From assembly GCA_041583775.1 (NCBI GenBank), contig JBFHFF010000003.1, forward strand, positions 28,547 to 92,546: 64,000 nt of DNA, given 5' to 3'. The position numbers and the translations under genes are program-made. Shown piece after piece: positions 58,073 through 61,186 of the stretch; position 1 is the stretch's first letter; every line of letters begins with the position of its first letter. Source of the DNA: Candidatus Moraniibacteriota bacterium (GTDB lineage: Bacteria > Patescibacteriota > Minisyncoccia > Moranbacterales > DUUL01). The notes beneath the pieces are model-generated. The model worked only from the letters and a program-made list of their open reading frames with translations, was not told the DNA's origin and ran no database searches.

Positions 58073-61000
58073 ATGAAAAAAGGAAGAATTGTTCCACAAT
58101 ATAATTTTGCTAAAATCGAGAAAAAATGGCAAAAATCTTGGCAAGAGAAAAAAGTTTATGAGGTTGATATAAATAACGCCAAAAAACCTTTTTATAATTT
58201 GATGATGTTTCCGTATCCTTCAGCAGAAGGGTTGCATGTTGGAGGAGTTTATACTTATACGGGAGTTGATGCTTTTGGAAGATTTAAAAGAATGCAAGGG
58301 TATGATGTTTTTGAGCCAATGGGGTTAGATGGTTTTGGAATTCATAGTGAAAATTATGCAATGAAAATTGGTGAACACATTGATGATGTTTCAAAGCGAA
58401 CAGAGAAAAACTTTTATCGACAACTTTCTTCAATTGGAAATATGTTTGATTGGTCAAGAACAGTTGAGACCTATAAACCAGAGTACTACCGTTGGACGCA
58501 ATGGTTGTTTTTGCAACTTTTTAAAAAAGGATTGGCATATCAAAAGAAAGCCAAAGTGAATTGGTGTCCTTCTTGTAAAACTGTTCTTTCTGATGAACAA
58601 GTGATTCAAGGGCAATGTGAGCGATGTGACAGTTTTGTAGAAAAAAGAGAATTAAAACAATGGTTTTTTCGTATCACAAAATATGCAGATCGACTTTTGA
58701 AAAATTTAGATTGGATTGATTGGCCAGAAGATGTAAAAACTAATCAAAGAAATTGGATTGGTAAAAGCGAGGGGGCAAATATCAAGTTTCAAGTTGAAGT
58801 TGCTGGTGAGAACAAGGGTGAATTGGAAGTTTTTACAACTCGTCCAGATACGCTTTTCGGTGCGACTTATATGGTTTTAGCTCCAGAACACGAATTAGTT
58901 CAAAGTGCAAAAGAGGTTATTGAAAATTGGAGTGAGGTGGATAAATATGTCAAAAAAGCAATTAGCAAATCGGAGCAGGAAAGAAAAAATGATGAGAAAA
59001 CTAAAACAGGGGTTGAGTTGAAAGGAATCTCGGCTATCAACCCTGCAAGTGGGGAAAAAATCCCTGTTTGGGTTGCTGACTATGTCTTGGCAGGATATGG
59101 AACAGGAGCAATTATGGCTGTTCCAGCACATGATGCTCGTGATTTTGAATTTGCAAAGAAATTTGGTATTGAAGTTAAATGTGTTGTTGAACCTAAAGAT
59201 TCCAAAACAGGACTTATTTTTAGACTAGGTACTCCAAAAGAGGATCCACAAGAAAAATTAGAAAAAATTTATAAAGGAGAGGAATGTTATGAGGGACTTG
59301 GTGTTTCAATGAATTCAGGATTTTTAAATGGAAAATCAACAACCGAAGCGAAAGCCGAAATGTTGGAATGGTTGGAGAAAAAAAATGTTGGTAAAAAATC
59401 AATTGACTTTAAACTTCGAGATTGGTGTGTTTCTCGTCAGAGATATTGGGGACCTCCAATTCCGATTGTGTGGTGCAAAGAATGTGCGAAGAATCAAAAC
59501 AAACGAAAAGTTTTGATGATTCACGGATTTGAAGGCGTTGGAGACGGAAATTGGTTTCCTCACCTAAAAAAAGAGCTTGAAGAAAAAGGTTGTGAGGTCT
59601 TCACTCCAACATTAGAAACTAATACCAAGCCAGATTTAGAACAATGGATGAAACAATTAAAGCCATATTTGGACAAGTTGGACGAAAATAGTGTTATTAT
59701 TGGTCACAGCCTTGGTTCAAAGGCAATTTTGCATTTATTGGAAGGAAACAAACAAAAAGTTGATAAAATTTTCTTAGTCGCTTCCGCAATTGGCAATCTA
59801 AAGAGAGATTGGAAATGGTTGGCAGATCGATGGAAAAATTCAGATGTAGAGTCTTTGCGCAAATTCTGGGAAGCAGAATTGGATTGGAGCAAGATCAATC
59901 CAAAAGTGAATGAATCTTTTGCAATCGTTTCAAAAGATGATCTATATGTTGATGTTAGTAATTATGAAGCGATGGAGCTTGATGGTTTGAATGTTGAAAT
60001 TTGGGATGGACATAGACACTTTCAACAAACAGAAAATGCTGCATTAAAAGATTTTATTTTCGAAAACCTATTTAGTAATAGCGAAGCGGTTGCAGTTCCT
60101 GTTCCAGACAATCAGTTGCCAGTAAAATTGCCGCCAATGAAAGATTTTCTCCCTGAAGGAACCGGGAAAGGTCCTTTGGCAAAGAATGCTGAGTTTGTGA
60201 AAACAACTTGCCCTGTTTGCGGGGCTGACGCAGAAAGAGAAACTGATGTTTCGGATCCTTTTGTGGATTCTTCTTGGTATTTTTTTAGATATCCGTCAAC
60301 AGAGTTTGATGATGTTGCTTTTGATAAAGAAAGGACTAAGAAATGGCTTCCCGTAGACAGCTATATTGGTGGCAAAGAACACACAGTTTTGCATCTTTTG
60401 TATTCTAGATTTATAACTATGGTGCTTAAGGATTCGGGATATATTGATTTTGATGAGCCATATAAAAAATTCTTTGGGCACGGATTGATTACTAAAGAAG
60501 GTGCTAAAATGTCAAAATCAAAAGGAAATGTTGTAAATCCAGATGTTATGATTGAAAAATATGGGGCTGATACAACAAGAATGTATTTGAGATTTTTAGG
60601 AGACTTTTCTCAGGGAGGGGATTGGCGAGATTCTGGAATAGAAGGTATGAATAGATTTACGAAAAGACTTTGGTCACTCTTTTTTGAACTAGAAGGAAAT
60701 GGAAAAGGGGTTGATGATTTTTCAATGATAGATAAAACAATTAAAGTTGTTGGCGAGGACTTGGAAAAACTTTCATTTAATACTGCCGTTGCTCGTTTGA
60801 TGGAGTTTGTGAATTGGGTAAAAGAGAATAAAAATCAATTCAATGAAAAACAAGTTAAAAAAATCAAAGAAACGATGGCACTTATATTTGCCCCGATGAT
60901 GCCACATATAGCAGAGGAATTTTGGCAAGAAATTGGAGGGGAAAGCTTTGTTTGTGAGCAAAGATGGCCAAACTATGATAAGGACAAAATCATTGATAAT

Positions 61001-61186
61001 GAGATTGAACTTGTGATTCAGGTAAATGGAAAACTTCGAGATAAAATCAAAACACCACGAGATATTACTGAAAATGAAGCAAAAAAAATATCTTTGGAAA
61101 GCGAAAATATACAGAAATTTATCAATGGGAAAGAAGTAAGAAAAGTAATATATGTGCCAGGAAAGCTTGTGAATATAGTTATTTAA
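58073..61186 (+). CDS. leuS: Leucyl-tRNA synthetase carrying an inserted ~200-aa YdeN/RBBP9-type alpha/beta serine hydrolase domain (about 59486..60094), with HIGH motif variant HVGG
   Basis: LeuRS blocks throughout: [13 protein letters not shown], the first zinc knuckle CPSCKT...CERCDS, the CP1 editing domain with TTRPDT and [13 protein letters not shown], then [40 protein letters not shown] and the anticodon-binding C-terminus. After WCKEC lies a complete Ser-hydrolase fold ([19 protein letters not shown]...VIIGHSLGS...IFLVASA...SKDDLYVDV...WDGHRHFQ) before CPVCGA. Confidence 0.85.
   Translation: [1037 protein letters not shown]

What the first reader, a model, noticed from the sequence alone, without database searches (positions are those of the whole stretch)
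58073..61186. Leucyl-tRNA synthetase with a complete YdeN/RBBP9-type serine hydrolase domain inserted into its second zinc knuckle, plus a non-canonical HIGH motif (HVGG)
Location and size of the insertion:
- The continuous 1037-aa ORF has all LeuRS blocks, including a KMSKS motif and an apparently intact CP1 editing site.
- Between [15 protein letters not shown] and [13 protein letters not shown] it contains about 200 extra residues. A typical LeuRS has only a short zinc hairpin at this position.

Why the insert is a hydrolase and not an intein:
- It carries a VLMIHGFEG start, a GHSLGS nucleophile elbow, a later acidic residue and the catalytic-triad-like blocks DDLYVDV and WDGHRHFQ. This is the signature of small alpha/beta hydrolases of the YdeN/RBBP9 family.
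- There is no splice-junction Cys/Ser...HN signature.

Second peculiarity:
- The HIGH motif reads LHVGG. The second His, which contacts ATP, is replaced by Gly.

A hydrolase permanently tethered to a synthetase that already has a CP1 editing site raises the possibility of an additional deacylation or proofreading activity, or a moonlighting function.
Basis: seen in the sequence. Interest (0 to 1): 0.8.

Follow-up and report, generated by a model that had tools for sequence, protein, structure and literature searches.

The report
Leucyl-tRNA synthetase carrying an inserted hydrolase
An apparently functional leucyl-tRNA synthetase from a tiny uncultivated bacterium (Candidatus Moraniibacteriota) has a complete, apparently active serine hydrolase enzyme spliced into one of its zinc knuckles, and this turns out to be one example of a widespread, undescribed habit of this bacterial group of inserting small hydrolase enzymes into this synthetase.

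Summary
Window 58073..61186 (+) is one 1037-aa ORF, a bacterial-type LeuRS (TIGR00396, 911 bits). A 202-aa YdeN/RBBP9-type alpha/beta serine hydrolase (PF06821, residues 473-674) sits directly after the first CxxC of the ZN-2 knuckle. The normal ZN-2 loop and the second CxxC follow it.

The Ser546-Asp623-His649 triad is intact. The insert model (pLDDT 91) superposes on YdeN at TM 0.85. Insert dN/dS is about 0.10, close to the LeuRS body. It is not an intein and not a chimera: the same ORF appears in a second assembly, and an 82% relative shares synteny.

It is not a one-off. Of the 120 nearest LeuRS clusters, all Patescibacteria where named, 41 carry such a hydrolase at one of three sites. Others carry NUDIX, Ham1 or GIY-YIG modules. 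The embedded hydrolases look polyphyletic, which suggests recurrent capture, and inserts were also lost in nested lineages.

HVGG is a lineage-wide HIGH variant (HxGN/G/S) that also occurs in insert-free LeuRS, so it is unrelated to the insert.

Function is untested. I favour a bifunctional enzyme with an active accessory hydrolase that leucylation does not need. A second aminoacyl-ester or aminoacyl-nucleotide hydrolase coupled to LeuRS is not excluded. I found no published description.

The parts
58073..61186 (+). leuS ORF, 1037 aa including the insert (the end coordinate includes the stop codon)
   Evidence: TIGR00396 scores 911 bits. The full-length AF2 model has pLDDT 88.8 and pTM 0.75. 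Foldseek matches LeuRS 2bte, 4aq7 and 7nu3 at TMt of about 0.8.
58235..58246 (+). HIGH-motif variant HVGG (residues 55-58)
   Evidence: One search gives the position. H55 and G57 are invariant in 68 relatives. The fourth position is N, G or S across the clade.
58565..58627 (+). ZN-1 knuckle, CPSC...CERC (C165, C168, C182, C185)
   Evidence: One search gives the position. C165, C168 and C182 are invariant and C185 is at least 90% conserved.
58748..59377 (+). CP1 editing domain (residues 226-435), with TTRPDT 255-260 and Asp354
   Evidence: PF13603 matches at E 9e-61. T255, T256, D259, T260 and D354 are invariant.
59474..59485 (+). ZN-2, first Cys pair, CKEC (C468, C471)
   Evidence: Both cysteines are at least 90% conserved.
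59489..60094 (+). Inserted YdeN/RBBP9-type alpha/beta serine hydrolase domain (residues 473-674)
   Evidence: PF06821 scores 59-62 bits. YdeN 1uxo matches at E 4e-14 with the single sequence and 2.9e-29 with the profile. The AF2 insert model has pLDDT 91, and Foldseek gives YdeN TMt 0.85 at rmsd 2.2 A. dN/dS is 0.10.
59702..59716 (+). Nucleophile elbow GHSLG (Ser546)
   Evidence: Ser is present in 48/48 ZN-2-site, 10/10 S1-site and 7/7 S2-site embedded hydrolases. It aligns to the YdeN and RBBP9 nucleophile.
59930..59941 (+). Triad acid in SKDD (Asp623)
   Evidence: Asp is present in 47/48 S3, 10/10 S1 and 6/7 S2 embedded hydrolases. It aligns to the YdeN SKDD and RBBP9 STDD segments.
60011..60022 (+). 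Triad base in HRHF (His649)
   Evidence: His is invariant in all embedded and free homologues examined. It aligns to the YdeN GGHF and RBBP9 CGHF segments.
59804..59893 (+). Extended Trp-rich cap segment of the embedded subfamily (about residues 578-607, GNLKRDW...[11 protein letters not shown])
   Evidence: It is conserved among ZN-2-embedded hydrolases. About 11 of its residues are absent from most free homologues and from YdeN and RBBP9 (gap).
60095..60220 (+). Retained native ZN-2 loop (VPVP...KTT, 675-712) and second Cys pair CPVC (C713, C716)
   Evidence: It aligns to Tth 445-487. C713 and C716 are at least 90% conserved. pLDDT is 93-95.
60506..60520 (+). KMSKS motif (residues 812-816)
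   Evidence: One search gives the position. K812, S814, K815 and S816 are invariant.
60722..61069 (+). Anticodon-binding domain (PF08264, residues 884-999), followed by the C-terminal domain
   Evidence: and the alignment to Tth 635-876.

Best explanation
**Shown**
- This is a conserved leuS of a Candidatus Moraniibacteriota (Patescibacteria) genome, the only one seen in this window and apparently functional. All catalytic, zinc-binding and CP1-editing residues of a bacterial LeuRS are intact.
- A complete YdeN/RBBP9-type serine hydrolase of about 200 aa is looped out of the tip of the ZN-2 knuckle on short linkers, and the knuckle is left intact.
- The hydrolase folds as an independent alpha/beta domain. 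It keeps its Ser546-Asp623-His649 triad and evolves under purifying selection about as strong as that on the synthetase.

**Inferred**
- The protein is therefore a bifunctional enzyme. The LeuRS body carries out normal leucylation and CP1 proofreading. The hydrolase hydrolyses a small soluble ester or amide through an acyl-Ser546 intermediate.
- By analogy with RBBP9 (an aminopeptidase that needs a free alpha-amine) and with the YdeN-like esterase ML-005, the substrate is probably a short acyl or aminoacyl ester or amide.

**My commitment**
- The hydrolase is an accessory 'house-cleaning' module that leucylation itself does not require.
- It is one of a set of small hydrolytic modules (PF06821 hydrolase, NUDIX, Ham1) that Patescibacteria have repeatedly inserted into, and lost from, surface loops of LeuRS.
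- The benefit would be obligatory co-expression with an essential enzyme. A possible further benefit is proximity to the aminoacyl and nucleotide by-products made there.
For: **Anatomy and fold:**

**Catalytic competence**
- The triad is invariant or nearly so in 48 ZN-2-site, 10 S1-site and 7 S2-site embedded hydrolases.

**Selection**
- dN/dS of the insert is 0.10, against 0.07-0.08 for the body and 0.16 for CP1, measured against the 82% relative in L001.

**LeuRS integrity**
- H55, G57, KMSKS, TTRPDT and D354 are invariant, and the ZN-2 cysteines are at least 90% conserved, in 68 relatives.

**Accessory and modular nature**
- 41 of the 120 nearest LeuRS clusters carry a hydrolase at one of three sites.
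- Many carry NUDIX in an editing-domain loop. Some carry Ham1, GIY-YIG or NTase-like modules.
- Insert-free LeuRS (P0159, P0165, P0149, P0151) are nested among insert-bearing ones.
- The 94%-identical relative L007 has a NUDIX-box motif that the window protein lacks; its S2 insert was not mapped or Pfam-scanned.
- Outside LeuRS, PF06821 is fused to other hydrolases: Peptidase_S51, NUDIX and inositol monophosphatase.

**Permissive site**
- Zn2 is drawn with the static body of LeuRS (PMC9424281).

**Family chemistry**
- RBBP9 is an aminopeptidase that requires a free alpha-amine (PMC8866121).
- ML-005 is a short-chain esterase, and YdeN has no lid (PMC6119806).
Against: - No activity has been measured and no substrate is known.
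- Every host of 576 aa or longer among the best 150 cluster representatives related to the insert is a LeuRS. None is another synthetase or another essential protein.
- Hydrolases of several lineages were captured at three different LeuRS sites. This specificity and recurrence is more than a merely permissive host predicts, and it hints at a chemical link to LeuRS.
- The embedded subfamily has its own conserved Trp-rich cap, which suggests a specialised substrate.
- I could not measure where Ser546 lies relative to the tRNA 3' end, because model coordinates are not exposed.
- I could not check that this is the only leuS in the genome.
Confidence: 0.45

Rival explanations
1. Coupled aminoacyl hydrolase. 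The tethered hydrolase acts on LeuRS's own products: mischarged or charged tRNA(Leu) 3'-aminoacyl esters, or released aminoacyl-adenylates. This would be a CP1-independent second proofreading or deacylation activity.
For: - Among the best 150 hits, LeuRS is the only long host of this hydrolase family.
- Capture recurred at three sites from several hydrolase lineages.
- RBBP9 cleaves aminoacyl amides and requires a free alpha-amine (PMC8866121). The position aligned to its amine-anchoring Glu108 is acidic in 32/48 ZN-2-site and 9/10 S1-site inserts.
- The embedded subfamily has a specific cap.
- S1 and S2 insertions sit in or next to the editing domain.
Against: - The CP1 editing residues are invariant in all relatives, so no editing function has been lost that would need replacing.
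- Inserts are lost in nested lineages.
- Chemically unrelated modules (NUDIX, Ham1, GIY-YIG) occupy the same loops.
- ZN-2 belongs to the static body, not to the elements that shuttle the CCA end.
- The Glu108 equivalence rests on a gapped HMM alignment. The same position is also acidic in 20/45 free homologues.
Confidence: 0.22
2. Target-linked antidote. The hydrolase, and NUDIX, Ham1 or NTase-like modules in relatives, detoxify aminoacyl-nucleotide mimics that inhibit LeuRS. Agrocin-84/TM84-like or sulfamoyl-adenylate-like compounds would be examples. Cleavage happens at the target. This is analogous in logic to MccF or MccE immunity against processed microcin C (comparison from my own knowledge).
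For: - All inserted module types act on nucleotides, or on acyl or aminoacyl groups on small molecules.
- NCBIfam already recognises an IleRS with a GNAT acetyltransferase domain (NF040702, listed).
- The patchy gain and loss among close relatives is typical of conflict-related traits.
- The host is specifically LeuRS.
Against: - This is entirely inferential. No inhibitor is known for these organisms.
- PF06821 has no documented activity on aminoacyl-nucleotides.
- The same hydrolase family is also fused to unrelated metabolic hydrolases.
Confidence: 0.1
3. The domain is not a hydrolase in vivo. One possibility is that it serves as a structural or tRNA-binding appendage, for example compensating for the missing leucine-specific domain. 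Another is that it uses its acyl-Ser intermediate as a tRNA-dependent aminoacyl transferase, like the LysRS-MprF fusion LysX (comparison from my own knowledge).
For: - The leucine-specific domain is absent.
- Alpha/beta-hydrolase-fold acyltransferases exist (established knowledge).
- The tethering linkers are short, and the full-length model has pTM 0.75.
Against: - Insert-free relatives also lack the leucine-specific domain, at a baseline of 790-830 aa. The insert therefore does not compensate for it.
- Strict conservation of all three triad residues argues for catalysis.
- No acceptor-binding or membrane element was detected.
Confidence: 0.08
4. Artefact or selfish element: an assembly chimera, a frameshifted pseudogene, or an intein or other mobile insertion.
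For: Only the unusual length. GIY-YIG modules in some relatives hint that mobile elements have visited leuS in this group.
Against: - The reading frame is continuous.
- The identical ORF occurs in a second assembly, and the architecture and synteny are conserved in an 82% relative from another sample. Dozens of homologues exist.
- dN/dS of the insert is 0.10.
- There is no Hint or intein Pfam hit. The insert begins with Lys (after CKECA) and ends ...EAVA|VPVP, with no His-Asn and no Cys/Ser/Thr junction.
- There is no GC anomaly and there are no flanking repeats.
Confidence: 0.02

Closest known systems
Bacterial leucyl-tRNA synthetase (T. thermophilus 1H3N/2BTE, E. coli 4AQ7, N. gonorrhoeae 7NU3)
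   Same: - The domain order is the same: Rossmann core, ZN-1, CP1 editing domain inserted after ZN-1, a four-Cys ZN-2, KMSKS, anticodon-binding domain and C-terminal domain.
- Structure-based identity over the body is about 30-34% (Foldseek), and TMt is about 0.8.
- The editing residues are conserved.
   Different: - A 202-aa hydrolase sits after the first ZN-2 CxxC. None of the LeuRS chains matched in the PDB searches exceeds 880 aa or aligns across the insert.
- The leucine-specific domain (Tth 578-634) is absent.
- HIGH reads HVGG.
B. subtilis YdeN (PDB 1UXO), the founding structure of PF06821
   Same: - It has the same lid-less, roughly 190-aa alpha/beta-hydrolase fold (TMt 0.85, rmsd 2.2 A).
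- The HG, GHSLG, SKDD and GHF motifs are aligned.
   Different: - YdeN is free-standing and only about 26% identical.
- It lacks the roughly 11-residue Trp-rich cap extension.
- Its physiological substrate is also unknown.
Human RBBP9 (PDB 2QS9/7OEX)
   Same: - Same family and fold (profile E 1e-17; TMt 0.78).
- It has a Ser-Asp-His triad.
- It is an aminopeptidase that needs a free alpha-amine (PMC8866121). An acidic residue aligns to its Glu108.
   Different: - It is a free-standing eukaryotic protein, about 22% identical.
- Its aromatic-pocket residues (for example Tyr99) are not conserved in the insert.
- No link to tRNA is known.
ML-005 metagenomic esterase (YdeN-like)
   Same: It is the biochemically characterised bacterial member of the YdeN family. 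It has a Ser-Asp-His triad and prefers short-chain soluble esters (PMC6119806).
   Different: It is free-standing. I did not compare its sequence directly here.
Synthetases fused to non-editing enzymes: IleRS with a GNAT domain (NCBIfam NF040702), and LysRS-MprF 'LysX' of mycobacteria (the latter from my own knowledge)
   Same: In each case an aaRS is covalently joined to a second catalytic domain unrelated to the classical editing folds.
   Different: - Those are different enzymes and, as far as I know, terminal fusions. Here a domain is inserted inside a zinc knuckle.
- The window protein scores only 66 bits against NF040702 (cut-off 1999), through its class I core.
Classical aaRS editing modules (CP1, INS/YbaK, AlaX, ThrRS N2, Dtd)
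   Same: They are hydrolytic domains attached to, or acting with, a synthetase to cleave aminoacyl esters.
   Different: - None has an alpha/beta-hydrolase fold with a Ser-Asp-His triad (established knowledge).
- The insert matches only alpha/beta-hydrolase families.

Membership tests
Bacterial-type LeuRS (TIGR00396 leuS_bact) | Full-length profile match above the curated cut-off | tested here: met
   911 bits against a cut-off of 548, in two stretches split by the insert. T. thermophilus LeuRS matches at E 6e-213.
Bacterial-type LeuRS (TIGR00396 leuS_bact) | Class I signature motifs HIGH and KMSKS | tested here: inconclusive
   KMSKS is present and invariant. HIGH is present as HVGG: H55 and G57 are invariant, but the fourth residue is Gly, not His. 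The whole Patescibacteria clade has N, G or S at that position. The activity of this variant cannot be tested here.
Bacterial-type LeuRS (TIGR00396 leuS_bact) | CP1 editing domain inserted after ZN-1, with the Thr-rich motif and the universal Asp | tested here: met
   PF13603 matches 226-435 at E 9e-61. TTRPDT 255-260 and D354 are invariant.
Bacterial-type LeuRS (TIGR00396 leuS_bact) | Bacterial/mitochondrial-specific ZN-2 knuckle with four Cys (PMC4005665) | tested here: met
   C468, C471, C713 and C716 are present and at least 90% conserved. They align to Tth C439, C442, C484 and C487. The knuckle is interrupted by the insert.
Bacterial-type LeuRS (TIGR00396 leuS_bact) | Leucine-specific domain between the Rossmann halves (present in Tth, E. 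coli and N. gonorrhoeae; not universal) | tested here: not met
   Query 807-810 spans Tth 578-635, so the domain is absent. It is absent in the whole clade, which has a baseline of 790-830 aa.
Bacterial-type LeuRS (TIGR00396 leuS_bact) | Leucylation of tRNA(Leu), and being the sole leuS of the genome | not testable with these tools
   There is no second leuS in the window; the 810-aa ORF is a PBP. No assembly appears twice among the 80 genome loci. Whole genomes could not be scanned.
PF06821 Ser_hydrolase (YdeN/RBBP9 family) | Profile match above the Pfam gathering score | tested here: met
   59.1 bits in the full protein and 61.9 bits for the insert alone, against a cut-off of 22.
PF06821 Ser_hydrolase (YdeN/RBBP9 family) | Compact, lid-less alpha/beta-hydrolase fold of about 190 aa | tested here: met
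   The AF2 model has pLDDT 91 and pTM 0.87. Foldseek gives YdeN at TMt 0.85 and rmsd 2.2 A, and RBBP9 at TMt 0.78.
PF06821 Ser_hydrolase (YdeN/RBBP9 family) | Ser-Asp-His triad at the canonical positions (GxSxG elbow, xDD, GHF) | tested here: met
   S546, D623 and H649 align to the YdeN and RBBP9 catalytic residues. They are conserved in 47-48 of 48 ZN-2-site inserts.
PF06821 Ser_hydrolase (YdeN/RBBP9 family) | Hydrolytic activity | not testable with these tools
   This needs enzyme assays or activity-based probes.
Intein | Hint domain; N-terminal Cys/Ser; C-terminal His-Asn followed by Cys/Ser/Thr | tested here: not met
   There is no Hint or intein Pfam hit. The junctions read CKECA|KNQ... 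and ...SEAVA|VPVP.
Classical aaRS editing domains (CP1, YbaK/INS, AlaX, N2, Dtd) | Homology of the insert to one of these folds | tested here: not met
   The insert matches only alpha/beta-hydrolase families in Pfam, NCBIfam and the PDB, by sequence and by fold.

The most novel reading that the evidence does not exclude
The PF06821 domain is a previously unrecognised type of synthetase-linked aminoacyl hydrolase. It would be an alpha/beta-hydrolase with a Ser-Asp-His triad, captured repeatedly and independently by Patescibacteria LeuRS. Its substrate would be an aminoacyl ester or aminoacyl-nucleotide at the enzyme: mischarged tRNA(Leu), stray aminoacyl-adenylate, or adenylate-mimic antibiotics. 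That would add a new fold to the repertoire of aaRS quality-control or self-protection modules. It would also give a physiological substrate class to the orphan YdeN/RBBP9 family.
Probability: 0.25. Interest if true: 0.9.

Novelty: new variant of a known kind. Interest (0 to 1): 0.68.

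Why it matters
Synthetases with extra catalytic domains are known. An intact alpha/beta serine hydrolase spliced inside the ZN-2 knuckle of LeuRS is not described in any paper I could find, and none of the LeuRS chains matched in the PDB searches has it.

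The evidence shows a conserved, selected and recurrent feature:
- It occurs at three insertion sites and involves several hydrolase lineages.
- It is often combined with NUDIX or Ham1 modules.
- It is found in a major uncultivated bacterial radiation with minimal genomes.

This gives three testable leads:
1. A possible new class of synthetase-associated hydrolytic activity, whether fidelity, by-product clean-up or antibiotic defence.
2. A physiological context for the orphan YdeN/RBBP9 family.
3. A natural map of permissive insertion sites in LeuRS (ZN-2 tip, start of CP1, a CP1 loop), useful for protein engineering.

It also shows that HxGN/HxGG variants of the HIGH motif are the norm in this LeuRS lineage. 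That matters for motif-based annotation.

Tried and rejected
- **First homologue search.** Using the insert plus flanks returned only proteins under about 505 aa. The tool seems to filter by length relative to the query, so full-length LeuRS were hidden. I redid the search with the full protein.
- **ASCH guess.** From a GxKxxETR motif I guessed that the extra ~135-aa module after the hydrolase in P0130, P0134 and P0139-P0144 is ASCH-like. Pfam gave no hit even at E=1, so I dropped the guess.
- **Second leuS in the window.** The 810-aa ORF at 35487..37919 is a class A PBP.
- **Traces of recent mobile insertion.** There is no GC anomaly across the insert. Only short A-rich chance repeats flank it.
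- **Intein.** No Hint domain and no splice-junction residues.
- **Geometry.** I could not measure the distance from Ser546 to the synthetic and editing sites or to the tRNA path, because model coordinates are not exposed.
- **AFDB50 fold search.** The library was unavailable.
- **Literature.** Seven searches, of which four looked for the architecture itself, found no description of a hydrolase-bearing LeuRS. The library is incomplete, so absence there is not proof.
- **Trees.** The NJ trees have no support values. I use them only for coarse statements.

Full report

Yes. Window 58073..61186 (+) is a single ATG-initiated ORF of 1037 aa.

Pfam finds these domains:
- the LeuRS editing domain at 226-435;
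- class I catalytic core segments;
- the anticodon-binding domain at 884-999;
- PF06821 Ser_hydrolase at 480-630 (E 6.6e-16; 59 bits against a gathering score of 22).

NCBIfam TIGR00396 (leuS_bact) scores 911 bits against a cut-off of 548. The match is split into two stretches by the insert.

The alignment to T. thermophilus LeuRS (1h3n) fixes the boundaries precisely:
- query 9-472 matches Tth 3-443;
- query 675-807 matches Tth 445-578;
- query 810-1037 matches Tth 635-876.

The extra segment is therefore residues 473-674 (nt 59489-60094), 202 aa. It sits immediately after the first CxxC of the ZN-2 knuckle (C468/C471).

A normal bacterial LeuRS has a loop of about 41 residues between the two ZN-2 Cys pairs, not a minimal hairpin. 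That loop is retained here after the insert (VPVP...KTT, 675-712), followed by C713/C716.

The same alignment shows that the leucine-specific domain (Tth 578-634) is missing.

**2. What is the insert?**

It is a bona fide YdeN/RBBP9-type alpha/beta serine hydrolase.

| Test | Result |
|---|---|
| Single insert sequence against PDB | B. subtilis YdeN (1uxo), E 4e-14 |
| Profile of 20 LeuRS-embedded inserts against PDB | YdeN E 2.9e-29, human RBBP9 E 1.1e-17, both over full length; elbow, xDD acid and GHF histidine all in register |
| AF2 model, insert alone | pLDDT 91, pTM 0.87 |
| Foldseek of the insert model | YdeN TMt 0.85, rmsd 2.2 A; RBBP9 TMt about 0.78 |
| AF2 model, full length | pLDDT 88.8, pTM 0.75; insert blocks at pLDDT 81-96; ZN-2 strands at 93-95 |
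| Foldseek of the full-length model | body matches solved LeuRS at TMt about 0.8 |

No LeuRS chain matched in the PDB sequence or fold searches exceeds 880 residues or aligns across the insert.

The triad is Ser546 (GHSLG), Asp623 (SKDD) and His649 (HRHF).

It is not an intein. There is no Hint domain, and the junctions read CKECA|KNQ... and ...EAVA|VPVP.

**3. Is it an artefact, and is it under selection?**

- The identical 1037-aa protein is carried by a 142-kb NCBI contig and by a separately assembled 42-kb Logan contig (SRR29257461; L002), with the same neighbours.
- A relative 82% identical, from another run (SRR14597296; L001), has the same insert and the same synteny: PPIase, RRM protein, a ~110-aa ORF, then leuS.
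- Codon-level comparison of the window with L001 gives the values below. dS is about 1.4 and near saturation, so the absolute values are rough, but the comparison between regions holds.

| Region | dN/dS |
|---|---|
| Insert (473-674) | 0.10 |
| LeuRS body | 0.07-0.08 |
| CP1 editing domain | 0.16 |

- There is no GC anomaly and no flanking repeats.

The insert is therefore a maintained, functional part of the gene.

**4. Is the synthetase intact?**

In an alignment of 68 relatives:
- H55 and G57 of the HIGH motif are invariant;
- K812, S814, K815 and S816 are invariant;
- the CP1 residues T255, T256, D259, T260 and D354 are invariant;
- all four ZN-2 cysteines are at least 90% conserved.

ZN-2 is specific to bacterial and mitochondrial LeuRS. 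Its Cys-to-Ala mutants abolish aminoacylation in N. magadii LeuRS1 (PMC4005665). It is therefore notable that the knuckle tolerates a 200-aa loop-out.

In the N. gonorrhoeae LeuRS work, Zn2 is drawn with the static body of the enzyme (PMC9424281). That fits a permissive site.

**5. The HIGH variant**

HVGG is real, but it is a lineage trait.
- Among the 120 nearest LeuRS clusters, nearly all read HxGN, HxGG or HxGS. These include insert-free enzymes of about 820 aa (P0149, P0151, P0159, P0165). Only three distant sequences read HVGH.
- In a broader sample of 80 species-representative genomes, HVGH dominates (44 of 80), while the HxGN/G/S forms are the minority there.

The variant is therefore unrelated to the insert. 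From my own knowledge, other class I synthetases naturally use such endings (GluRS HVGG, TrpRS TIGN), so it does not imply inactivity.

**6. It is one of many**

A search with the full-length protein, followed by mapping against an insert-free reference and Pfam scans, shows that the Patescibacteria LeuRS closest to this one are mosaics.

| Site | Position | What is inserted |
|---|---|---|
| S3 | ZN-2, as in the window | PF06821 hydrolase in 33 of 120 clusters, sometimes followed by an uncharacterised ~135-aa module |
| S1 | Start of CP1 | A different PF06821-like hydrolase (about 26% identical) in 8 clusters, or a Ham1-like domain |
| S2 | A loop inside CP1 | NUDIX in many clusters, or a hydrolase |

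- Further sites carry GIY-YIG or NTase-like segments.
- Some proteins combine Ham1, NUDIX and hydrolase (P0204), or hold two hydrolases (P0168, P0248).
- An exhaustive search of 1.84 billion cluster representatives with the insert alone gave 1626 hits. The best 13 are all LeuRS-type proteins. The first free-standing hydrolases appear at about 36% identity.
- Every hit of 576 aa or longer among the best 150 is a LeuRS, with the hydrolase at S3, S2 or S1.
- The triad is conserved at all three sites: Ser 48/48, 10/10 and 7/7; His likewise; Asp 47/48, 10/10 and 6/7.
- A rough NJ tree of the hydrolase domains puts the window's insert in one large ZN-2 clade. Other embedded hydrolases fall in several separate clades interleaved with free enzymes. 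This suggests recurrent capture.
- On the LeuRS-body tree, insert-free enzymes are nested among insert-bearing ones.
- The closest named genome is a Candidatus Moraniibacteriota MAG (L007), 94% identical over the part on its contig. It has a NUDIX-box motif that the window protein lacks; I did not map or Pfam-scan its insert.
- The modules are therefore gained and lost on short time scales.
- The public records call these proteins simply 'leucine--tRNA ligase'.

**7. How does it most likely work?**

*Shown:* a complete LeuRS and a complete, selected serine hydrolase in a single polypeptide.

*Inferred:* a bifunctional enzyme.

The known chemistry of the family is limited:
- RBBP9 is an aminopeptidase that requires a free alpha-amine (PMC8866121).
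- The YdeN-like ML-005 is a short-chain esterase, and YdeN has no lid, which suggests soluble substrates (PMC6119806).

I favour an accessory house-cleaning hydrolase that leucylation does not need (confidence 0.45). The reasons are:
- CP1 is intact everywhere.
- The modules come and go among close relatives.
- Chemically unrelated hydrolytic modules share the same host loops.
- Outside LeuRS, the same hydrolase family is fused to other hydrolases: Peptidase_S51, NUDIX and inositol monophosphatase.

Several facts keep a LeuRS-coupled aminoacyl hydrolase alive (0.22), and with it the target-linked antidote idea (0.10):
- The host is exclusively LeuRS among the best hits.
- Capture was repeated at three sites.
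- The embedded subfamily has its own conserved, roughly 11-residue longer, Trp-rich cap.
- An acidic residue sits at the position aligned to RBBP9's amine-anchoring Glu108. It is acidic in 32/48 S3 and 9/10 S1 inserts, but also in 20/45 free homologues.

These rivals could not be separated here. Model coordinates are not exposed, so I could not measure the position of Ser546 relative to the tRNA path. No activity data exist.

**8. Novelty**

Synthetases with extra catalytic domains are a known kind. Examples are the CP1, INS and N2 editing modules, the IleRS with a GNAT domain that NCBIfam recognises as NF040702, and LysRS-MprF (from my own knowledge).

An alpha/beta-hydrolase with a Ser-Asp-His triad inside ZN-2, and the wider pattern of LeuRS as a recurrent host of small hydrolases in Patescibacteria, was not found in the literature searches aimed at it; three further searches covered PF06821 biochemistry and LeuRS ZN-2. 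A recent survey of domain insertions mentions LeuRS only for its editing domain (PMC13114784).

I rate it a new variant of a known kind. The function is open and directly testable.

**9. Limits**

- Whether this is the only leuS in the genome is unverified. There is none elsewhere in the window, and no assembly appears twice among 80 genome loci.
- The trees are NJ without support values.
- dS is near saturation.
- The paper library is incomplete.

Noticed in passing
window ~63280-64000 (runs off the 3' end); L002 15208-21159: Directly downstream of dxs, the longer contig L002 encodes a Cas12a (Cpf1: REC1, PI-like, RuvC, NUC; 1359 aa) followed by Cas4, Cas1 and Cas2. This is a type V-A CRISPR-Cas locus in a Moraniibacteriota genome. 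Only its first ~700 nt fall inside the window.
   Followed up: no
window 60491-60502 region (residues 807-810): The leucine-specific domain of bacterial LeuRS (Tth 578-634) is absent from this protein. It is also absent from the whole related Patescibacteria clade, which has a baseline length of 790-830 aa.
   Followed up: partly
related proteins P0123-P0126, P0147, P0148, P0152, P0160 and others (editing-domain loop, equivalent to window residues ~378-410): Many close relatives carry a NUDIX domain (PF00293) inserted in a loop of the CP1 editing domain, often together with the ZN-2 hydrolase. The window protein lacks it. The 94%-identical relative L007 carries a NUDIX-box motif, but its insert was not mapped.
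   Followed up: partly
related proteins P0168, P0204, P0155, P0163, P0200, P0202, P0226, P0248: Other modules are inserted in LeuRS of this group. They include Ham1-like (PF01725) at the start of CP1, a 94-aa GIY-YIG (PF01541) segment inside CP1, weakly NTase-like segments of ~150 aa after ZN-2, and two tandem hydrolases before CP1. Total lengths reach about 1440 aa.
   Followed up: partly
related proteins P0130, P0134, P0139-P0144, and fragment P0001: In these relatives the ZN-2 hydrolase is followed by a conserved ~135-aa module with a GxKxxETR motif and no Pfam match. My ASCH guess was not supported. P0001 is a 421-aa ORF on a 65.9-kb contig. It begins within the LeuRS editing domain ([21 protein letters not shown]) and ends inside this module, so leuS may be split or frameshifted there.
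   Followed up: partly
loci L011, L012, L016, L025, L036, L043, L046, L048, L062: In several Patescibacteria species-representative genomes the tblastn match to LeuRS spans 3.8-4.6 kb, yet the longest single ORF in the locus is under 900 aa. These leuS genes may be split, interrupted or frameshifted.
   Followed up: no
window 56695-57021 (+) and 57601-57930 (-): An RRM_1-domain RNA-binding protein (108 aa by the ORF listing, from an upstream TTG; the called gene at this position in L001 and L002 is 97 aa) and a small hydrophobic 109-aa ORF lie immediately upstream of leuS. This arrangement is conserved in the 82% relative L001.
   Followed up: no
window 31842-33617 (+) and 30193-31845 (+): There is a 591-aa RimK-like ATP-grasp protein, preceded by a 550-aa ORF with no Pfam match. 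I saw these only while ruling out a second leuS.
   Followed up: no
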